From positions 1,440,001 through 1,472,000 of the forward strand of contig NC_011979.1 in NCBI RefSeq assembly GCF_000022265.1: 32,000 nt of DNA. Reading direction: 5' to 3'. The notes below the pieces were generated by a model. That model searched no databases and was not told the DNA's origin. It saw only the letters and a program-made list of their open reading frames with translations. Both the position numbers and the translations under genes were made by a program. Below are positions 13,287 to 19,914 of this stretch, one piece after another (position 1 is the stretch's first letter; the number at the start of each line of letters is the position of its first letter). The DNA comes from Geotalea daltonii FRC-32. GTDB taxonomy: Bacteria > Desulfobacterota > Desulfuromonadia > Geobacterales > Geobacteraceae.

Positions 13287-14144
13287 TTGATTGATCTTAT
13301 GCTAAAGGGAGGAACCCACCCGGTAATGACTATCGTTGGAGAATCCTGGCGCTTTATTGACACTGGCCCATTGGACGGCCCGGCCAACATGGCCGTTGAC
13401 GAGGCGCTGCTGGAGCATTTCCACCCGGAGACCTCGCAACCGGTGCTGCGCCTCTACGGCTGGCATCCGCCGGCTTTTTCCCTGGGCCGCTATCAGCAGG
13501 CTGCAGAGGTGCTCGATCTTGAGCTCTGTGCCGAGCGGGGGGTACCGGTGGTGCGTCGCATCACCGGCGGGGGCCTCATTTACCATGCCGAGGAGCTCAC
13601 CTACAGCATCGTCTGCGCACCGAAACATATTGCCGAAGCCGGCACCGTCAAGGAATCCTTTGCCCGGCTCTGCGGCTTCCTCATTCGCACCTATGGGAGG
13701 CTTGGGCTTAAGGCCGGATTTGCCGTGGATAACACCCCGGCCGGTACCAGGCTCGGCGGAAGGACCGCTTTCTGCTTTGCCGGCAAAGAGGAATACGATG
13801 TCGTAGTTGCCGGTCGCAAGTTGGGAGGCAACGCCCAGCGACGGACCAAAAGGCTGATCTTCCAGCACGGTTCCATGCCACTGCGACCGGCCCTATCGTC
13901 GGCGATCCCATTCCTGCGGGAGAAGATGTCCGCCCTGGACAAAAGCACCGCCAGTCTGGCCGAACTTGGCGTGGCAGTGGACGAGGAGGCTCTGAAGCAG
14001 ACGGTGGCAGAGTGTTTTGCCGAAACCATGGGCGTCATCCTGCAAACGGACGCCTTGACGGCCGGGGAACTGGAGACTGGGCGCCAGCTGGAAGAGAAGA
14101 AATATGGCAGTTTCTCCTGGAATGCCCACGGAATCACTGGGTGA
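13287..14144 (+). CDS. Lipoate-protein ligase family protein (LplA/LipM-type catalytic domain only; probable octanoyl/lipoyl transferase)
   Basis: VVRRITGGGLIYHAEELTYS and GRKLGGNAQRR (conserved Lys) match the BPL_LplA_LipB fold. There is no LplA C-terminal accessory domain. The track start is TTG 13287, with GGGGGAG 7 nt upstream. ATG 13299 and 13326 are alternatives. Confidence 0.8.
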   Translation: MIDLMLKGGTHPVMTIVGESWRFIDTGPLDGPANMAVDEALLEHFHPETSQPVLRLYGWHPPAFSLGRYQQAAEVLDLELCAERGVPVVRRITGGGLIYHAEELTYSIVCAPKHIAEAGTVKESFARLCGFLIRTYGRLGLKAGFAVDNTPAGTRLGGRTAFCFAGKEEYDVVVAGRKLGGNAQRRTKRLIFQHGSMPLRPALSSAIPFLREKMSALDKSTASLAELGVAVDEEALKQTVAECFAETMGVILQTDALTAGELETGRQLEEKKYGSFSWNAHGITG

Positions 14145-14249
14145 GCGAAATCACCGGAAGTTCCCTCTACCCTTGATTTATCGTTCCTGGCCCATTAAAG
14201 TGTCAGTGTGTTGTCGCCTGTTTTTCTACGGAAAGAAACCGGAATAATT

Positions 14250-15134
14250 ATGAAAATCACCCGTCGCCCCGAATGGCTGCAGAAAAAGGTCTCCCCCGCT
14301 GCCCATGCCGACATGGAACGTCTGCTGGGGGGGCTGCAACTGCATACCGTCTGCCAGGAGGCCCACTGCCCCAATATTTCGGAATGCTTCCGCCAGCGCC
14401 AGGCGACCTTTCTTATCCTGGGCAAGCTCTGTACTCGTCTCTGTTCCTTCTGCAATGTGACAAAGCAGACACCTCTGGCAGTGGACCAGGCCGAGCCGGA
14501 GCGGGTCGCTGCGGCGGTGGAGCTGTTGAAGCTGACCCACGTGGTTGTCACCAGTCCCACCAGGGATGACCTTGCCGACGGTGGGGCCGCTCTCTATGCC
14601 GCAACGGTGGCGGCAATCCGTAATGCTTCGCCCCAGACGAAGATCGAGCTCCTTGTTCCGGATTTTGCCGGCAATCAGGAAAGCATAGCCGCAGTCGTCT
14701 CGGCCTGTCCCCATATTCTCGGGCACAACCTGGAGACGGTGCCGCGACTTTATTCAATCCGCTCCGGTGCCGATTATCGGCGTTCGCTGCTGATGCTGGA
14801 AATGATTCGTCGGCTTAACCCGGCAATGAAGACCAAGACCGGCCTCATGCTCGGCCTGGGGGAGACGGAGGAGGAGCTTTTCCAGGCTCTCCGGGACCTG
14901 CGCCGGGTGGACTGTTCATACTTGAGTCTTGGCCAGTACCTGGCGCCGAGCCGCAGCCACTATCCGGTACAGGATTACCCGTCGCCGGAAACCTTCGACC
15001 GCTATCGGGAGCAGGCCCTGTCCATGGGGTTCGAACACGTGGAGAGCGGGCCTTACGTGCGCAGTTCCTACCATGCCGAGCATTACGGGACTGGCACGGG
15101 GCATGCAAAACTTTCCCCTGCCCCTGCCGATTGA
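14250..15134 (+). CDS. lipA: Lipoyl synthase (radical SAM)
   Basis: CQEAHCPNISEC is the auxiliary 4Fe-4S cluster motif and CTRLCSFCNV is the radical-SAM CxxxCxxC. A C-terminal RSSY motif is present (VRSSYHA). I prefer ATG 14250 (MKITRRPEWL) to the longer ORF start at 14208. Confidence 0.92.
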   Translation: MKITRRPEWLQKKVSPAAHADMERLLGGLQLHTVCQEAHCPNISECFRQRQATFLILGKLCTRLCSFCNVTKQTPLAVDQAEPERVAAAVELLKLTHVVVTSPTRDDLADGGAALYAATVAAIRNASPQTKIELLVPDFAGNQESIAAVVSACPHILGHNLETVPRLYSIRSGADYRRSLLMLEMIRRLNPAMKTKTGLMLGLGETEEELFQALRDLRRVDCSYLSLGQYLAPSRSHYPVQDYPSPETFDRYREQALSMGFEHVESGPYVRSSYHAEHYGTGTGHAKLSPAPAD

Positions 15135-15172
15135 TTTGGGGAAATCAGCTGAATAAGGGTTTTAGGACAAAG

Positions 15173-15775
15173 ATGGACAGAACAGGTATGAAAAAAATTC
15201 CTATTTCAGTGAAAATTTTGCTCTTTTTGGCCGTGGTCATCCTTGGCCAAGCGCCGGCATCATCCTTTGCCGCAGCAAGAAAGTCGCCGGTCGACGGCGG
15301 GTTCATCACTTCCGGCGTCGGTTACCGCCCGGACCCGTTCGGCAGCGGCCGCATGGTCTATCACAACGGCTATGACATCGCCGTGCCCCTCGGTACCCCG
15401 GTCTATCCCACCCAGGCGGGCACCGTCTATTTTGCCGGCTCATACAAGGGCTATGGCAACCTGGTGGCGGTGGACCACCAAAACGGCTATGTAACCTTTT
15501 ATGGCCACAATTCAGAGGTAAAGGTAACGGTGGGGCAGAAGGTGGATACGACCACGGTGATTGCCCTGGCCGGGAGCACCGGCAGGTCCACCGGCCCCCA
15601 CGTCCATTATGAGGTGAGGCAGTTGCCGGAATATGGAAAGCAGCGGCGAGAGCAGCTGGAAGCGGGCTTAAAGCAGGTATTGCAAGATAAGATAGATGGT
15701 TGGGTTGAGGACTATGTTGCCGGCAAGGGGGGACCCGAACCGGAGAAGATCATGCCTGAGGATAGCGGGGAGTAA
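15173..15775 (+). CDS. Secreted M23 (LytM-type) peptidoglycan metallopeptidase
   Basis: The signal peptide is MKKIPISVKILLFLAVVILGQAPASSFAA. Motifs YHNGYDIA, GYGNLVAVDH and GSTGRSTGPHVHYEV give the HxxxD ... HxH Zn ligands. ATG 15188 is an alternative start. Confidence 0.85.
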   Translation: MDRTGMKKIPISVKILLFLAVVILGQAPASSFAAARKSPVDGGFITSGVGYRPDPFGSGRMVYHNGYDIAVPLGTPVYPTQAGTVYFAGSYKGYGNLVAVDHQNGYVTFYGHNSEVKVTVGQKVDTTTVIALAGSTGRSTGPHVHYEVRQLPEYGKQRREQLEAGLKQVLQDKIDGWVEDYVAGKGGPEPEKIMPEDSGE

Positions 15776-16166
15776 GTTGAAGCCGGATCAAGGGGATCAG
15801 TGACCGATCCAGCTTACCCATGCGATCAGGGCCGAGCAGTTTCATTTCAGTGCGCAAGCGTTCGCATTTTGCAATCATTTCTGTCACATCTACCCCCCGG
15901 CAGACAGGCTCCACATGCCGCAACAGTTTAACGGCCTGCCCCAGCAGAAATACTGCCCCTGCATAATTTTCTTCCTGCCAGTGGTGCAGCGCCACAGCCA
16001 CCTGTAGAATTCCTTGGTACAGATCACGCGCCGATCCACTTTCCCCTGCCCACAGCTCTTCCAGTGTCTCATGGCAGATAAACCATTCGCCGCGATTGAA
16101 CTGATCGACGGCGAGGATGAATTCCTCCGGAGGCTGTGCCCGGTCATCCTTTCGGAGGCCTATCAT
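15750..16166 (-). CDS. DUF309-domain protein
   Basis: FNRGEWFICHETLEELW ... LYQGILQVAVALHHWQEENYAGA is the DUF309 signature as I recall it. Its 3-prime end overlaps the convergent M23 gene by 26 nt. Confidence 0.7.
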   Translation of the reverse strand: MIGLRKDDRAQPPEEFILAVDQFNRGEWFICHETLEELWAGESGSARDLYQGILQVAVALHHWQEENYAGAVFLLGQAVKLLRHVEPVCRGVDVTEMIAKCERLRTEMKLLGPDRMGKLDRSLIPLIRLQLTPRYPQA

Positions 16167-16543
16167 GACCGCAGCAGCTCCTCTTTCAGCCGCTCATCGA
16201 TCATGCTGTCCTCGATGGCTTCCCGGGCCCAGCTGTCCCGGCTCTGGGCAATAACCCGCGCCGCCCCCTCGCTTACCGCCGGGATCGGGCTCCACAAGGC
16301 ATTGCGGATAATCCTCAGCTCATGATCTTCGGCTTTCCTGCCCTCGGCCATCCCCCGGCAGTTGCCGCAAAGCAGGGCCACAGTCTCCTCTGTCGGCTCC
16401 CGATTATTCCCATTCTCCCATGGCCGCAGGTCTTCCTTTCCTTCGCACCATTCGCAGACGAATTTGGCCCGCTTCGCCAAGGCTTTGCCCATGCCGGCGA
16501 TTATTTCCTGCCGTTCCCTGTTCGACTGATAACCCTTAGCCAT
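16163..16543 (-). CDS. Hypothetical Zn-ribbon protein (CxxC...CxxC), translationally coupled to the DUF309 gene
   Basis: CEWCEG ... CGNCRG. Its stop overlaps the DUF309 start (ATGA at 16163-16166). AAGGAGA lies upstream of ATG 16543. Confidence 0.6.
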   Translation of the reverse strand: MAKGYQSNRERQEIIAGMGKALAKRAKFVCEWCEGKEDLRPWENGNNREPTEETVALLCGNCRGMAEGRKAEDHELRIIRNALWSPIPAVSEGAARVIAQSRDSWAREAIEDSMIDERLKEELLRS

Positions 16544-16556
16544 GATGTCTCCTTTT

Positions 16557-16585
16557 TCTCCCCTCTCCCTCAGGGAGAGGGGAGA
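16557..16585. repeat. Perfect 13-bp-stem G/C palindrome (REP-like)
   Basis: TCTCCCCTCTCCC-TCA-GGGAGAGGGGAGA lies between two minus-strand genes. A related element is at 23087-23123. Confidence 0.85.
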
Positions 16586-16680
16586 TCAGCCTTCCACTTT
16601 CGAATTATTAGCCGCCTGACTCAAGTTTACCATCATGCCACTTAAAGCTATGGTGCTCTGCCCGTGGCTTGTCAGTCAGC

Positions 16681-17601
16681 TCAGGCCTGCTGTCTGTTCA
16701 AAAAAGCAAGGATCAGGCGGTTTACAACATCCGGTTGCTCCTGATGCACGAAATGGCCGGCTGACGGGATAATATGTTTTTCAAAATGCTTGATAAAAGC
16801 GCTTTCCATCCCCGTGGTAGTTTCCTCGCCAATGCAGCCATCATCAGCACCATGCAGGTGCATTGCCGGAACCGGGATGGGATCGCCCAGACGTTTCCGG
16901 ATGTCTGCCAGTTCCGGCCGCTGGAGCGCAGGATTGAACTGGGAACGATAATAGCCCAAGGCAGCCTTCAGCACGGCAGGCTGTCGGAATGCCGCCTTTA
17001 TTTCATCCATGATCGCTTGCGGGCATTGCCAACCCGGAGACCAATCCTGCCATAACTGCTCGATGAACGTGCAATCGTCCTGAGCCACCGCCATTTCAGC
17101 GAACGGTAGCTGGAAAAAATACATGTACCAGGAGCGCCGCTGCTGAACCGGGTTGATCAAGAGCGCCCGACTGAAATTACCTGCTGTGGGAACCGACATG
17201 CTGACGATCCGGGCAACTTTCGCAGGTGCCATGATCGCCGCACCACGCACCACCGAGGTGCCCCAATCATGGCCAATGAGCGTTACCGGCTGATCCGTCA
17301 GCCGGTCTATCAGCGCCAGCAAATCCTGAATGAGAATGGCGACCTCGAAAGGACCGTTGGATTCGGGCTCTGATTCGGAGTAGCCCCGCAGGCAAGGGGC
17401 GACTACCCGGTAACCATTTGCCGCCAGCACCGGGATCTGGTGGCGGAAGGAGATTGGCAGGTCGGGAAAGCCGTGAACGGCTATGACTAACGGCCCATCA
17501 CCAGCTCCGAGGGCGTGGACGTAACGGCCATTTGCCTGTAGGGTGAGCCTGCTGAGGTTAAAGAAATTTTCCAGTTCCCGTTTTGTACCTTCTGTTGTCA
17601 T
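16681..17601 (-). CDS. Alpha/beta-fold hydrolase (epoxide hydrolase / haloalkane dehalogenase-like)
   Basis: VHGFPDL (HGxP oxyanion motif), LIGHDWG (nucleophile elbow with Asp) and a C-terminal GHFVHQEQP (catalytic His). Confidence 0.85.
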   Translation of the reverse strand: MTTEGTKRELENFFNLSRLTLQANGRYVHALGAGDGPLVIAVHGFPDLPISFRHQIPVLAANGYRVVAPCLRGYSESEPESNGPFEVAILIQDLLALIDRLTDQPVTLIGHDWGTSVVRGAAIMAPAKVARIVSMSVPTAGNFSRALLINPVQQRRSWYMYFFQLPFAEMAVAQDDCTFIEQLWQDWSPGWQCPQAIMDEIKAAFRQPAVLKAALGYYRSQFNPALQRPELADIRKRLGDPIPVPAMHLHGADDGCIGEETTTGMESAFIKHFEKHIIPSAGHFVHQEQPDVVNRLILAFLNRQQA

Positions 17602-17665
17602 GTTTGCTGCCTCCTCTGATGGTTTGTCTATTAGACGCTACCGGAAGCAAAAGGTTACAAACAAA

Positions 17666-18448
17666 TCAGGAAAAAATGGCCCATTCCTTATTTCTTATCC
17701 CGTCCCTGATTCTATTCACATAAGAGGCGTCGGCAGTTTCCCGGCACAGGCAATGGTAGACAGTGCGCAGAGCCTTCAGCTGGCTGATTTCCTCCCTGAC
17801 CTGCATGGTGTCGGGAGGAGGTGAGGCGTCTGCTGTCCGGGGTTTGAACCATCCCTGGGACAGGCCGAAGCGAACCCATTGGTTGCACGAGCAGCTGCCG
17901 GACTTGTTAATCAGCTGACATCGGTCATCCATGTAACCAAACCATCGTTCCTTTGCCCGATGCAGGGCTGTTTTTACCGAACCCACCGAACATTCCAGGA
18001 TTTCAGCCACCAGCTTGTGGGGTAGGCCCAAGGTGATCGCCAGGCAAAAAACCTTGCGCTGCTCCAGGGGCAGACATTCGGTCAAGCTGTGCAGGCACTT
18101 GATCCGCACCTGATTGGCCAGCAGTTCGGTTTCAGGATTGTTGGCGGGATTGGGGTCGAGGATATCTTCGAGCACATAACCGAAATCCTCGGTAAGTGCA
18201 TGAACAGGGAACTTGGTTCGCTGCCTCAGGTAATCATTGGCAACATTCAGGGCAATGCGGTAGATCCAGGTAGAAAATGCGCATCCGTCGCGAAACTCGC
18301 CGTAGGAACGGAATGCCCTGAGAAAAGCCTCCTGGGTCACTTCTTCAGCGTCGTGGCTATTCCCGGTGAGCCCCAAGGCCAGTTTGTACAACATATCCCT
18401 GTTGTCGCGGTACAACTGGTCGAAAAGCTCAGCCAGATCATCTGACAT
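17666..18448 (-). CDS. ECF-type sigma-70 family factor with a ~100-aa Cys-rich C-terminal extension
   Basis: Region 2 reads EEVTQEAFLRAFRSYGEF...STWIYRIALNVANDYLR. Region 4 reads LPLEQRKVFCLAITLGLPHKLVAEILECSVGSVKTALHRAKERW. The extension reads DDRCQLINKSGSCSCNQW...YHCLCRE. I prefer ATG 18448 (GGAGGAG 9 nt upstream). ATG 18466 overlaps the upstream stop as TAATG. Confidence 0.85.
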   Translation of the reverse strand: MSDDLAELFDQLYRDNRDMLYKLALGLTGNSHDAEEVTQEAFLRAFRSYGEFRDGCAFSTWIYRIALNVANDYLRQRTKFPVHALTEDFGYVLEDILDPNPANNPETELLANQVRIKCLHSLTECLPLEQRKVFCLAITLGLPHKLVAEILECSVGSVKTALHRAKERWFGYMDDRCQLINKSGSCSCNQWVRFGLSQGWFKPRTADASPPPDTMQVREEISQLKALRTVYHCLCRETADASYVNRIRDGIRNKEWAIFS

Positions 18449-18465
18449 GGGGACTAGCTCCTCCA

Positions 18466-18816
18466 TTATTTACAGCTGCAGTCGAAGTCCCATGTGCATG
18501 AGGAATAAGTCTTTATGCACTTTCCATTTTGGTCGTAGGCGATGCATTCAGGCGTGCAGCACATGCATCCCTGCAATTTCAGATTCGTTCCCCCAGTCTG
18601 CTTCATCTGAATACCGTTGGCAAATCTGGCGACCTCACGTCCGTTCTGGTCTACGATGGCGTTTCCGTCATCAGAGATGCGCAGTTCCTTTTTTTCAACT
18701 TGAATCAGCTGCTTTGCAGCCTCGGGTTCTGCAGCATTGGCCAATGTGGTCCCCAGGTTAAGAAGCAAAAAGGTTGCAGTCGTTACCGTGGTGATTTGCA
18801 GAATTTTGTTGAGCAT
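18466..18816 (-). CDS. Secreted Cys-rich mini-protein (signal peptide; 8 Cys in the last 33 residues)
   Basis: The signal peptide MLNKILQITTVTTATFLLLNLGTTLANA is followed by AEPE. The C-terminus reads GCMCCTPECIAYDQNGKCIKTYSSCTWDFDCSCK*. AAGGAG lies 6 nt before ATG 18816. The gene sits directly upstream of the sigma factor in the same operon. Confidence 0.65.
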   Translation of the reverse strand: MLNKILQITTVTTATFLLLNLGTTLANAAEPEAAKQLIQVEKKELRISDDGNAIVDQNGREVARFANGIQMKQTGGTNLKLQGCMCCTPECIAYDQNGKCIKTYSSCTWDFDCSCK

Positions 18817-18847
18817 GTCTTTCTCCTTTTTTGATGTGGGTAGCAGA

Positions 18848-18873
18848 GTCGATCTGGTAATGCATCAGTTCAA
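18848..18873 (-). promoter_or_regulatory. Candidate ECF-type promoter (TGAAC-N16-CGAC) upstream of the Cys-rich/sigma operon
   Basis: The minus strand reads GTTGAAC-TGATGCATTACCAGAT-CGACTC about 30 nt upstream of ATG 18816. This resembles the GGAAC-N16/17-CGT pattern of autoregulated ECF promoters. Pattern match only. Confidence 0.3.
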
Positions 18874-19182
18874 CGGAATTTTTTTACATGTGGCAATGTG
18901 TCTATGGATGAACCTGACATCAAGTGCTAATTTTGTGCAGCATTGTACCTGCAAAAGCCTTAAGAAAAAATAAAAATTAAGAGGAAGAAATGGATATGGG
19001 CAAATCTTTTGTCATCTGCGTGGTTTTTATTTGAGTCTGCTCGGATCAAGTGCATTCGCAGTAACAGATACTATGGCTGCCGTCTGATCCTGTCTTTCAG
19101 CTGGTTGTATTGGGCGTCATTGGGGAAAAGGATGTTAGACTTGTGGTAGGAGAATCAAACGGGCGGGTAGAGAGGAGGAGCA

Positions 19183-19914
19183 ATGGCCAAGGTACAGATC
19201 GGCTGCAGCGGCTTCAATTACAACCACTGGCGCGGCACCTTCTATCCAGAGAAGCTGCCGCAACGGCTCTGGTTCGCCCATTATTTCTCCGTCTTTTCCA
19301 CCGTGGAGCTGAACGTCACCTTTTATCGGCTGCCCCAGCTCTCGGTTTTCCAGCACTGGCGGGAACAAACGCCGGAAAATTTCCAGTTCGTCATTAAGGG
19401 GAGCCGCTTCATTACCCATATCAAAAAACTGAAAGAGGTTGAGGAGCCCCTGCAGCGTTTTTTTGACGCGGCATCAGGGCTGGGTGACAAGCTGCGGGTT
19501 GTGCTCTGGCAGCTGGCGCCCTCCTTTTTCCTGGATCTGGAACGACTTAGCCGATTCCTTGAGCTGCTGGACCGTTACCCGGTGCGCAATGCCTTCGAGT
19601 TCCGCAATGAAAGCTGGTTCTGTGAACAGGGTGTGGAGTTGTGCCGCGGGCACAATGCCGCCATCTGTCTGGCCGACTGGCCCCAATACCTCTATGAATG
19701 GGCTCCGACCGCCGACTTTATCTATCTGCGCCGCCACGGCCACGGGGGAGATTACGCCGCCTGCTACAGCGAGGAGGAACTGAGCCGGGATGCGGAACGT
19801 ATCCGCTCCTATCTGAAAGACGGGCGGGATGTGTATATTTACTACAACAACGATGCCCTTGGTTTTGCCCCCCAAAATGCCCTGCGGCTCGCAGAATTGC
19901 TGCAACTTCGATAG
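19183..19914 (+). CDS. DUF72 (YecE/UPF0759) family protein
   Basis: IGCSGFNYNHWRGTFYPEKLP...YFSVFSTVELNVTFYRLP and ...YIYYNND match the DUF72 pattern as I recall it. GAGGAGG lies upstream of ATG 19183. Confidence 0.85.
   Translation: MAKVQIGCSGFNYNHWRGTFYPEKLPQRLWFAHYFSVFSTVELNVTFYRLPQLSVFQHWREQTPENFQFVIKGSRFITHIKKLKEVEEPLQRFFDAASGLGDKLRVVLWQLAPSFFLDLERLSRFLELLDRYPVRNAFEFRNESWFCEQGVELCRGHNAAICLADWPQYLYEWAPTADFIYLRRHGHGGDYAACYSEEELSRDAERIRSYLKDGRDVYIYYNNDALGFAPQNALRLAELLQLR

What the first reader, a model, noticed from the sequence alone, without database searches (positions are those of the whole stretch)
17666..18873. Secreted 8-Cys mini-protein cotranscribed with an ECF sigma factor that carries CxC motifs in a C-terminal extension and has no anti-sigma gene
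The first gene encodes a signal peptide, a ~55-aa spacer and the tail GCMCCTPECIAYDQNGKCIKTYSSCTWDFDCSCK (8 Cys in 33 residues). Its stop overlaps or abuts the sigma gene start (TAATG at 18464-18468, or ATG 18448). The sigma factor has a ~100-aa extension with C-x8-CSC and CLC motifs plus a Cys in region 2 (RDGCAF). No membrane anti-sigma gene is adjacent. This recalls CorE-type (ECF44) sigma factors of Myxococcus, where a C-terminal Cys-rich domain binds metal and replaces the anti-sigma factor. A TGAAC-N16-CGAC motif upstream suggests autoregulation. The mini-protein could be a periplasmic metal/metalloid-binding protein, a disulfide-knotted effector or a signalling peptide. The segment also looks more AT-rich than its surroundings, by eye.
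Basis: partly seen in the sequence, partly recalled or inferred. Interest (0 to 1): 0.65.

Follow-up and report, generated by a model that had tools for sequence, protein, structure and literature searches.

The report
Chance neighbours: mini-protein and sigma cassette
The secreted cysteine-rich mini-protein and the sigma factor are both real, conserved genes, but they lie side by side only in this one species; the sigma factor's conserved partner is the detoxification-type gene after it, which it probably switches on from a promoter placed right behind its own stop codon.

Summary
The window is from Geotalea daltonii FRC-32, and the mini-protein is Geob_1326. The proposed functional pairing is not supported.

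**Mini-protein.** It belongs to an unnamed family of at least 143 protein clusters with no Pfam domain. Six Cys are invariant, and C86 and C115 are gained or lost strictly together (63 members have both, 57 have neither, none has only one). That pattern points to disulfides, not metal binding. In about 40 other loci, including the closest relatives (82%, 79% and 66% identity), no sigma gene and no other conserved neighbour lies next to it.

**Sigma factor.** It belongs to a compact family of ECF sigma factors with no anti-sigma gene. The family has a C-terminal extension of about 90 aa and five conserved Cys: C-x6-C at the start of sigma-4 and C-x8-C-x-C in the extension.

**The sigma's conserved partner.** In 9 of 9 other loci, and in the window, a canonical ECF promoter (GTAACC-N16/17-GTCTAA; window 17631-17658) starts about 10 nt after the sigma stop codon. 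It precedes the next gene, which is an epoxide-hydrolase-like enzyme or a DUF3795 protein. No copy of this promoter lies upstream of the sigma gene, so there is no sign of autoregulation.

G. toluenoxydans lacks the whole sigma-hydrolase segment at this site. Resemblance to CorE is partial, and membership of that group is not shown.

The parts
18848..18872 (-). It is a generic ECF-like motif about 30 nt upstream of the mini-protein start codon. Its function is unknown.
   Evidence: Present once in the window; expected count 0.14, and 14 of 100 shuffles give at least one match. Not conserved upstream of 27 mini homologs. Its -35 half scores below 2 bits on the sigma family's promoter matrix.
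18466..18816 (-). Gene for the exported mini-protein (Geob_1326, 116 aa). Signal sequence: residues 1-28 (18733-18816). Conserved beta domain: residues ~42-65. Cys-rich beta-hairpin tail: residues 83-116 (18469-18570).
   Evidence: 100% identical to Geob_1326. The family has at least 143 clusters, with no Pfam domain and no name. Six Cys and the WDFD motif are invariant, and C86/C115 co-vary 63:57:0. The AlphaFold2 model has mean pLDDT 78 and is all-beta. No fold or sequence match in PDB or BFVD.
18459..18464 (-). Shine-Dalgarno sequence GGAGGA of the sigma gene. It lies directly after the mini-protein stop codon, 10 nt before ATG 18448.
   Evidence: Read from the sequence. Homologs start at the equivalent Met.
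17666..18448 (-). ECF sigma factor gene (260 aa from ATG 18448). Sigma-2 is about 18212-18415, sigma-4 about 17945-18100, and the C-terminal extension 17669-17944. The conserved Cys are C118 and C125 at the start of sigma-4 and C177, C186 and C188 in the extension (260-aa numbering).
   Evidence: Pfam and NCBIfam. At least 385 clusters at 60-87% identity. Alignments A2, A3 and A6. An extension profile finds only 40 representatives among 1.84 billion proteins, essentially all at the C-termini of ECF-sized proteins.
17631..17658 (-). ECF-type promoter GTAACC-N16-GTCTAA, starting 10 nt after the sigma stop codon. This is the presumed target promoter of this sigma and drives the next gene. Its spacer contains GCTTCC (17643-17648), which is complementary to the downstream Shine-Dalgarno GGAGG (17611-17615).
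   Evidence: Single hit in the window, expected count 0.04. Present at the same position in 9 of 9 independent sigma loci from at least two phyla. The pairing between spacer and Shine-Dalgarno is only suggestive.
16681..17601 (-). Epoxide-hydrolase-like alpha/beta hydrolase (306 aa, with HGFP and GHDWG motifs). This is the conserved +1 gene of the sigma factor in Geobacteraceae.
   Evidence: Pfam Abhydrolase_1. The best solved relatives are epoxide hydrolases (5ng7, E 2e-34, full length). The same +1 gene occurs in L124, L125, L126 and L131.
16557..16585 (.). Perfect 14-bp inverted repeat at the far edge of the segment that G. toluenoxydans lacks (16555-18466).

Best explanation
Two unrelated units happen to abut in Geotalea daltonii.

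Unit 1 is a solitary gene of an unnamed, patchily distributed family of Sec-exported proteins of about 88 aa. Each has a small conserved beta domain followed by a beta-hairpin tail stapled by three or four disulfides. It is most likely a stable periplasmic or secreted binding protein or inhibitor-type protein, not a metal binder and not a regulator of the sigma factor.

Unit 2 is a self-contained sense-and-respond cassette. It consists of an ECF sigma factor with a fused C-terminal domain of about 90 aa, its target promoter, and one effector gene. The fused domain, together with two Cys at the start of sigma-4, offers five conserved thiols. The target promoter (GTAACC-N16-GTCTAA) sits immediately behind the sigma stop codon. 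The effector is an epoxide-hydrolase-like enzyme here and a Cys-rich DUF3795 protein in other lineages.

The Cys cluster probably holds a metal ion or Fe-S cluster, or is directly modified by oxidants or electrophiles. It would gate sigma activity without an anti-sigma factor, as in CorE, OrbS or ECF41.

In G. daltonii the cassette (16555-18466) sits directly after the mini-protein stop codon, so the sigma gene is probably transcribed by read-through from the mini-protein promoter. That coupling is specific to this lineage.

Shown: gene structures, conservation, lack of co-occurrence, and the position and conservation of the promoter.

Inferred: sigma-promoter specificity, thiol-based sensing, disulfide connectivity, and co-transcription.
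For: Lack of co-occurrence:
- 36 metagenome loci carry a mini homolog. Only L081, which is 100% identical and so the same organism, has the sigma next to it.
- No neighbour of any size is conserved next to the mini gene.
- Syntrophorhabdus aromaticivorans, G. toluenoxydans, and the contigs with 82%- and 79%-identical mini-proteins all lack the sigma.

A lineage-specific segment:
- The G. toluenoxydans locus aligns to the mini gene (77%) and then jumps straight to the 126-aa gene (79%). Window positions 16555-18466 are skipped.
- L134 shares the upstream DUF72/AAA/DUF2201 synteny but has an alpha-2-macroglobulin gene after the mini gene.

The sigma's own context:
- In 9 sigma loci the upstream genes all differ.
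- The +1 gene, about 68 nt downstream, is always Abhydrolase_1 or DUF3795.
- Every locus carries GTAACC-N16/17-GTCTAA right after the stop codon, and it is the only strong match within about 5 kb on either side. The window has a single match, with an expected count of 0.04.

Conserved cysteines in the sigma:
- C118, C177, C186 and C188 are invariant and C125 is nearly invariant, down to 26% identity.
- No anti-sigma domain lies next to any member.

Mini-protein:
- C86 and C115 co-vary across 120 members: 63 have both, 57 have neither, none has only one. The six other Cys are invariant.
- The AlphaFold2 model is all-beta, with a long hairpin at 81-94/100-110.
- One member has a lipobox in place of the signal-peptidase I site.

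The +1 gene is epoxide-hydrolase-like.
Against: - No transcript data are available. Co-transcription of the mini and sigma genes, and use of the 17631-17658 promoter by this sigma, are inferred from layout and conservation alone.
- The promoter is of a common ECF type. A similar site upstream of glmM in Tumebacillus scored 19 bits. Specificity for this sigma is therefore not proven.
- Only 9 independent sigma loci could be examined.
- The AlphaFold2 model of the extension has low confidence (pLDDT below 50 for residues 172-210), so clustering of the five Cys is not shown.
- Whether the event was an insertion in G. daltonii or a deletion in G. toluenoxydans is not resolved.
- The 17-nt spacing, with the Shine-Dalgarno sequence right after the mini stop codon, could still give a real, recently evolved functional coupling in this species.
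Confidence: 0.72

Rival explanations
1. One reading: the mini-protein and the sigma factor form one functional module. In this model a CorE-type metal- or metalloid-responsive sigma autoregulates an operon whose first product is a periplasmic metal-binding or signalling peptide.
For: The genes are 17 nt apart on the same strand with no terminator between them. An ECF-like motif lies upstream of the mini gene. Both proteins are Cys-rich. The sigma has no anti-sigma gene, and its C-x8-C-x-C resembles the C-x7-C-x-C part of the CorE Cys-rich domain (PMC3107203).
Against: The adjacency is found in no other genome among about 40 mini loci and 9 sigma loci. The upstream motif is not conserved and does not match the family promoter. 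No family promoter lies upstream of any sigma gene. The neighbours are detoxification and redox enzymes, not metal pumps. C86/C115 co-variation indicates disulfides.
Confidence: 0.06
2. A coupling newly evolved in G. daltonii. After the cassette landed behind the mini gene, expression of the sigma became dependent on the conditions that induce the mini-protein. The pair would then be a real regulatory unit in this species, although it is not ancestral.
For: The arrangement is tight: stop codon, Shine-Dalgarno sequence and start codon fall within 20 nt. No sigma-70-like promoter was detected inside the mini gene on the minus strand. In other genomes the sigma also often sits 12-70 nt behind unrelated same-strand genes, so read-through expression may be the norm for this cassette.
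Against: This is purely positional, with no expression data. An internal promoter of a type the scan does not cover cannot be excluded.
Confidence: 0.15
3. The sigma's Cys residues are purely structural, for example a constitutive zinc site that stabilises the extension. Regulation would then be transcriptional only, or would come through another ligand bound by the helical part of the extension, in the manner of the SnoaL domain of ECF41.
For: Cys4/Cys5 zinc sites are common structural elements. The extension continues for about 70 aa beyond the Cys motif, with conserved residues (W200, Y231, G250, I251, W256), which would suit a ligand-binding or sigma-contacting domain.
Against: Two of the five Cys lie in sigma-4 itself, so a site that links sigma-4 to the extension is well placed to act as a switch. 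The family is seen in anaerobes, next to redox and electrophile-detoxifying enzymes and Cys-rich DUF3795 proteins.
Confidence: 0.2
4. The mini-protein is a periplasmic metal- or metalloid-binding protein (metallothionein-like) or an antimicrobial/bacteriocin-like peptide released from a pro-domain.
For: It has eight Cys in 33 residues, including a vicinal CC. An LQG motif is conserved just before the Cys-rich tail. Its phyletic distribution is patchy and the gene is AT-rich, both suggestive of horizontal transfer. By my own recollection, a disulfide-laddered hairpin recalls hepcidin or beta-hairpin antimicrobial peptides; this was not tested.
Against: The strict pairwise gain or loss of C86/C115 fits a disulfide better than a metal site. 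No immunity, export or maturation gene is conserved nearby. The N-terminal domain is as conserved as the tail, which argues against a disposable pro-peptide.
Confidence: 0.15

Closest known systems
CorE / CorE2 of Myxococcus xanthus (ECF44, now ECF238)
   Same: Both are ECF sigma factors without an anti-sigma factor. [quoted passage not shown] The likely logic is also shared: an on-board thiol site gates the sigma.
   Different: The extension here is about 90 aa, against 20-38 aa. It has three conserved Cys in the extension, not four to six. The C-x2-C is missing and the spacing differs by one residue. The linker has C-x6-C (C-x-H in the close subfamily) instead of CxC. The neighbours are an epoxide hydrolase, DUF3795 and detoxification enzymes, not copper or cadmium pumps and oxidases. 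No autoregulatory promoter is present. The extension profile recovered only ECF-sized proteins of about 240-280 aa and fragments of them.
ECF41 (SigJ, Ecf41Bli): sigma factors with a fused SnoaL-like regulatory domain
   Same: The architecture is a one-component sigma: a fused C-terminal domain of about 100 aa, no anti-sigma factor, and a single conserved neighbouring enzyme gene that carries the target promoter (PMC3426412; PMC8999054).
   Different: The extension here has no SnoaL match and is Cys-based. The promoter motif and the partner enzyme families differ.
ECF287 / ECF288 (Cys-rich C-terminal extensions) and OrbS of Burkholderia (on-board iron sensor)
   Same: These are ECF sigma factors whose Cys-rich C-terminal extension is proposed, or for OrbS shown, to sense a metal directly (PMC7826278, PMC9023288).
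   Different: ECF288 is restricted to Firmicutes, has the motif CGxxGxGxCxC, and has DUF2461 at +1. ECF287 is restricted to Actinobacteria. Neither pattern is seen here.
Small disulfide-rich exported proteins (beta-hairpin or knottin-like peptides, periplasmic inhibitor proteins)
   Same: Signal peptide, small size, and 3-4 inferred disulfides stapling a beta-hairpin.
   Different: No sequence or fold match to any solved or viral predicted structure. There is an additional conserved N-terminal beta domain. No Pfam, NCBIfam, PHROG or PADLOC family matches.

Membership tests
ECF sigma factors (sigma-70 group 4) | [quoted passage not shown] | tested here: met
   Pfam Sigma70_r2 (E 3e-19) and Sigma70_r4_2 (E 4e-12). 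NCBIfam TIGR02937 sigma70-ECF scores 84.9 bits against a cut-off of 42.9.
CorE-like sigma factors (ECF44 / ECF238) | Short (about 20-38 aa) C-terminal Cys-rich domain with four invariant Cys, C-x2-C-x7-C-x-C | tested here: not met
   The extension is about 92 aa. Only C-x8-C-x-C is conserved (three Cys), and the residue 3 positions before the first Cys is D/E/N. The definition comes from PMC3107203 and PMC7826278.
CorE-like sigma factors (ECF44 / ECF238) | [quoted passage not shown] | tested here: not met
   At the equivalent place the close subfamily has C-L-H and the wider family has C-x6-C. No CxC is present. The definition comes from PMC4937300.
CorE-like sigma factors (ECF44 / ECF238) | No anti-sigma factor gene linked | tested here: met
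   None of 10 loci has a zf-HC2, RskA or other anti-sigma domain gene next to this sigma.
CorE-like sigma factors (ECF44 / ECF238) | Metal-homeostasis genes in the neighbourhood, and metal-dependent activity | tested here: not met
   The neighbours are an epoxide hydrolase, DUF3795, nitroreductase, OYE, quinone reductase, glyoxalase and MFS transporters. Metal dependence itself cannot be tested with these tools.
CorE-like sigma factors (ECF44 / ECF238) | Assignment by the ECF Hub group HMMs | not testable with these tools
   No ECF Hub models or supplementary tables were available. The NCBIfam SigZ model (SigZ is an ECF238 member) was not among the 25 best ECF models.
ECF288 | Firmicutes only; CGxxGxGxCxC motif in the extension; DUF2461 at +1 | tested here: not met
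   The family spans Geobacteraceae, Nitrospirae and Desulfotomaculaceae. Its motif is C-x8-C-x-C without the Gly pattern. The +1 gene is Abhydrolase_1 or DUF3795.
ECF41 | SnoaL-like C-terminal extension | tested here: not met
   No SnoaL hit in Pfam at E <= 1.
Class I anti-sigma factor (asked of the mini-protein) | Cytoplasmic N-terminal anti-sigma domain followed by a transmembrane helix; gene linked to the sigma gene across genomes | tested here: not met
   Only about 5 residues precede the hydrophobic segment. No anti-sigma Pfam domain is found. The gene is not linked to the sigma in any other genome.
Epoxide hydrolase-type alpha/beta hydrolases (asked of the +1 gene) | HGxP oxyanion motif, Asp nucleophile in a G-H-D-W-G elbow, and full-length similarity to solved epoxide hydrolases | tested here: met
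   HGFP and GHDWG are read in the translation. The best PDB relatives are epoxide hydrolases (5ng7, E 2e-34, residues 21-301). Substrate was not tested.

The most novel reading that the evidence does not exclude
The sigma family may be an undescribed type of one-component thiol or Fe-S switch of anaerobes, packaged as a portable three-part cassette of sensor-sigma, its promoter and one detoxification gene. The promoter is fused to the sigma stop codon. Its unusually conserved spacer (GCCTCC) may double as an anti-Shine-Dalgarno sequence, so that read-through transcripts of the effector gene stay untranslated and only sigma-initiated transcripts are translated. Separately, the mini-protein may found a new fold class of disulfide-stapled periplasmic hairpin proteins in Gram-negative anaerobes.
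Probability: 0.25. Interest if true: 0.6.

Novelty: new variant of a known kind. Interest (0 to 1): 0.35.

Why it matters
The finding as stated, a secreted Cys-peptide partnered with a CorE-like sigma, does not hold, so no new signalling pair should be inferred from it. Two modest results remain.

1. An uncharacterised but well-defined family of ECF sigma factors without anti-sigma genes. It has five conserved Cys, an exactly predictable target promoter and a single-gene output. This makes it an easy system for testing how on-board thiol or metal sensing controls a sigma factor, and possibly a compact orthogonal regulatory part.

2. An unannotated family of exported mini-proteins with 3-4 disulfides and no recognisable fold relatives. 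A function has still to be found.

Tried and rejected
- **Genome-collection scan with the sigma alignment.** The back-translated patterns came from region 2 and pulled in generic ECF sigma factors (identity 41% or less). The scan was wasted, and those loci served only as negative controls for the promoter matrix.
- **AlphaFold2 of the sigma.** The extension has pLDDT below 50, so no fold search was run on it and no claim is made about Cys geometry.
- **RNAalifold on the nine sigma-to-+1 intergenic regions.** The alignment did not put the Shine-Dalgarno regions in register and no consensus structure came out. Single-sequence folds and duplex energies are only suggestive: all nine z-scores are negative, but only 3 of 9 reach a shuffle fraction of 0.06 or less.
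- **Fold and sequence searches.** Searches of the mini-protein against PDB and BFVD, and of the extension against PDB sequences, found nothing.
- **Family libraries and RNA scans.** PADLOC and PHROGs gave nothing. Rfam and tRNA scans of 16400-19400 gave nothing above threshold.
- **Direct repeats flanking the daltonii-specific segment.** None were convincing.
- **Conserved small ORFs next to mini homologs.** None were found.
- **Literature.** Searches for the locus tags, and for DUF3795 or epoxide hydrolase together with ECF sigma factors, found nothing relevant.
- **The mini-protein as an anti-sigma factor.** Considered and rejected: it has no cytoplasmic domain and no linkage to the sigma.
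Full report
**Source and observation**

The mini-protein is 100% identical to Geob_1326 of Geotalea (Geobacter) daltonii FRC-32, so the window comes from that genome.

Both minus-strand ORFs exist as described: the mini-protein at 18466-18816 (116 aa) and the sigma factor at 17666-18466.

- The mini-protein stop codon TAA (18468-18466) overlaps an ATG by one base.
- A GGAGGA Shine-Dalgarno (18464-18459) lies 10 nt before the second ATG (18448).
- Nearly all homologs are 260 aa and begin MSDD/MPDD. The real sigma start is therefore 18448, 17 nt after the mini-protein stop.
- Pfam finds Sigma70_r2 (residues 18-85) and Sigma70_r4_2 (123-174) and nothing in the last 92 residues or so. NCBIfam gives only the generic ECF superfamily model above its cut-off.
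- The TGAAC-N16-CGAC site is at 18848-18872. It is the only match in the window, but 14 of 100 shuffles give at least one.
- The low GC content (0.42-0.50) covers the mini gene and its upstream spacer, not the sigma gene.

**The mini-protein is a real family**

A single-sequence search found 39 clusters and a profile search found 143. None has a Pfam domain or a name.

Named sources are Geotalea, Syntrophorhabdus, Sulfuritortus, Hydrogenophilaceae, other Beta- and Gammaproteobacteria, Ignavibacteria and Thermodesulfobacteriota. The distribution is patchy.

The alignment shows three parts:

- a signal sequence with an AxA-type cleavage site (one member has a lipobox instead);
- a conserved middle region, ELxISxDGKxIVDQNGxEVARF, so this is not a spacer;
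- the tail, GCMCCxxECIxYDxxGxCxKxxxSCTWDFDCSCK.

Over 120 members, C84, C87, C91, C100, C107 and C113 are invariant. C86 and C115 are either both present (63 members) or both absent (57), and never present singly. This is the signature of a disulfide pair. The family therefore comes in 3- and 4-disulfide versions, which argues against a thiolate metal site.

AlphaFold2 (mean pLDDT 78) gives three short strands followed by a long hairpin at 81-94/100-110. Foldseek against PDB and BFVD, a profile search of PDB sequences, PHROGs and PADLOC all return nothing.

**The pair does not co-occur**

A metagenome scan with the mini-protein alignment returned 37 loci, and 36 of them carry a recognisable homolog. 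Only L081, which is 100% identical and so the same organism, has the sigma next to it.

Clustering of all flanking ORFs, first at 70 aa or more and then at 30 aa or more, found no conserved neighbour. The best case is a divergently oriented CBS-domain gene in 7 loci.

The genome loci agree:

| Locus | Mini-protein identity | What follows the mini gene |
|---|---|---|
| Syntrophorhabdus aromaticivorans | 71% | unrelated small genes |
| G. toluenoxydans | 66% | a 125-aa CxxC protein, 16 nt later |
| L134 (shares the DUF72/AAA/DUF2201 upstream synteny of the window) | 82% | a 1981-aa alpha-2-macroglobulin gene |
| L136 | 79% | no sigma start in the 84 nt available downstream |

BLASTN of the G. 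toluenoxydans locus against the window aligns the mini gene (77%) and then jumps to 16554-16170 (79%). The lipA/M23 flank is 96% identical. Window positions 16555-18466 are therefore a lineage-specific segment. This segment holds the Shine-Dalgarno sequence, the sigma gene, the promoter, the hydrolase gene and a perfect 14-bp inverted repeat at 16557-16585. Whether it was inserted here or deleted in the relative is not resolved.

**The sigma family and its real partner**

The sigma factor has at least 385 cluster-level homologs at 60-87% identity. Named sources are Citrifermentans bemidjiense, Geotalea uraniireducens, Geotalea sp. SG265, Desulfoscipio gibsoniae, a Desulfotomaculaceae bacterium and a Nitrospirae bacterium, i.e. 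mostly lineages known as anaerobes.

Nine independent loci were inspected.

- **Upstream genes all differ.** They are unknown proteins, a methyltransferase, a PEP-utilising fragment, an isochorismatase, a glyoxalase, an MFS transporter and a histidine kinase.
- **The next gene lies about 68 nt downstream in all but L132 (about 99 nt).** It is an Abhydrolase_1 protein in the four loci L124, L125, L126 and L131 (two are named Geobacteraceae genomes, two are unnamed metagenome contigs), as in the window. It is a DUF3795 protein in the other five, with three copies in tandem in L133.
- **The window's +1 protein is epoxide-hydrolase-like.** It has the HGFP and GHDWG motifs, and its best solved relatives are epoxide hydrolases (5ng7, E 2e-34).
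- **DUF3795 proteins are Cys-rich.** They have ten invariant Cys.
- **The wider neighbourhoods are rich in detoxification and redox genes.** They include quinone reductases, nitroreductases, OYE, glyoxalase, dienelactone hydrolase, and MerR- and MarR-type regulators.

**A conserved promoter behind the stop codon**

In all nine loci and in the window, (T)GTAACC-N16/17-GTCTAA begins about 10 nt after the sigma stop codon.

- A two-block weight matrix gives 19-28 bits for these sites.
- It finds no second site of 14 bits or more within about 5 kb on either side of any sigma gene.
- It finds 25 hits of 13 bits or more in 918 kb of control loci (best 19.3 bits), and only one strong hit in the 32-kb window, at 17630-17660.
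It is also not conserved upstream of 27 mini homologs.

The conserved arrangement is therefore sigma gene, then ECF promoter, then one effector gene, with no sign of autoregulation. That this sigma uses this promoter is an inference from position and conservation. The motif is of a common ECF type: a similar site precedes glmM in Tumebacillus.

**Conserved cysteines and the comparison with CorE**

Within the close family, the invariant residues are C118, H120, C125, C135, C177, C186 and C188 in 260-aa numbering.

A profile of the extension was searched against 1.84 billion representative proteins. It finds only 40 proteins, mostly C-termini of ECF-sized proteins and shorter sequences that look like fragments. 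In an alignment with the distant ones (26-40% identity), C118, C177, C186 and C188 stay invariant and C125 stays nearly invariant. H120 and C135 do not.

[quoted passage not shown] - metal-related gene neighbours (PMC3107203, PMC4937300, PMC7826278).

The present family has Cys at strikingly similar places but with a different pattern (C-x6-C, then C-x8-C-x-C). Its extension is three times longer and its neighbours are different. I therefore do not file it under ECF44/238. The "works like CorE" idea, an on-board thiol, metal or cluster site linking sigma-4 to the extension, remains the most likely mechanism but is untested. ECF288 (CGxxGxGxCxC motif, Firmicutes, DUF2461 at +1) and ECF41 (SnoaL extension) are also excluded by their defining features. 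The ECF Hub group could not be determined here. AlphaFold2 gave no confident model of the Cys region.

**A side observation on the promoter spacer**

The promoter spacer is conserved across phyla (TTTTGCCTCC), which is unusual for a spacer. It is complementary to the Shine-Dalgarno sequence of the +1 gene.

- Minimum-free-energy folds pair the two in most loci.
- L131 (CTTCCGC with GCGGAA) and L128/L133 (GGCC with GGUU) look compensatory.
- Duplex energies are lower than for shuffled spacers in all nine loci, but only three are individually convincing. RNAalifold gave nothing.

If the pairing is real, read-through transcripts would carry a sequestered Shine-Dalgarno sequence, while sigma-initiated transcripts, which start downstream of the spacer, would not. 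This is an idea, not a result.

**Verdict**

The interpretation as a functional mini-protein/sigma pair with autoregulation and CorE membership is not supported. What is there is an orphan exported disulfide-rich mini-protein gene that, in this species only, lies directly upstream of a portable sigma-promoter-effector cassette. Interest is moderate to low for the finding as posed. The cassette design and the unannotated mini-protein family add some value.

Noticed in passing
window 17611-17648 (-), and the equivalent regions of L124-L133: The spacer of the conserved ECF promoter (GCCTCC; GCTTCC in the window) is complementary to the Shine-Dalgarno sequence of the +1 gene. Some loci show apparently compensatory changes. 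It may act as an anti-Shine-Dalgarno sequence that blocks translation of read-through transcripts.
   Followed up: partly
window 16163-16543 (-): A 126-aa protein with CxxC...CxxC and no family match. In G. toluenoxydans its ortholog (79% DNA identity) follows the mini-protein gene after 16 nt, exactly where the sigma gene sits in G. daltonii.
   Followed up: partly
window 16557-16585: A perfect 14-bp inverted repeat (TCTCCCCTCTCCCT G AGGGAGAGGGGAGA) at the edge of the segment that G. toluenoxydans lacks. It has no T-run on the minus strand.
   Followed up: no
L134 4001-8315: In a contig sharing the DUF72/AAA/DUF2201 synteny of the window, the mini-protein gene (82% identity) is followed after 63 nt by a 1981-aa bacterial alpha-2-macroglobulin gene. 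In L135 a large gene (at least 549 aa, running to the contig end, not identified) follows the same mini-protein. This is a possible hint of a periplasmic defence or inhibitor role.
   Followed up: no
L114 / L115 4827-6236: A mini-protein-like domain lies in one 469-aa open frame with what looks, by eye from the sequence, like a PhyH-type dioxygenase part (not tested); no typical signal peptide was found at the candidate start codon examined. It is either a fusion or an assembly or frame artefact.
   Followed up: no
proteins P0030, P0036, P0038, P0039, P0031 (alignment A1): Some mini-protein homologs carry an extra Cys-rich insert (G[DE]CD[WY]CVCK..NSC.KCC) right after the signal peptide. One has a lipobox (LVGC) instead of an AxA cleavage site.
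   Followed up: no
L128, L130, L132, L133 (+1 genes of the sigma): Outside Geobacteraceae the sigma-controlled gene encodes a DUF3795 protein with ten invariant Cys. L133 has three such genes in tandem.
   Followed up: partly
window 13296-15768 versus 16170-18753: DNA identity to G. toluenoxydans drops from 96% (lplA/lipA/M23 block) to 77-79% (the mini gene and the 126-aa gene). This marks the region beside M23 as a variable hotspot. DUF309 (15750-16166) is also absent from the relative.
   Followed up: partly
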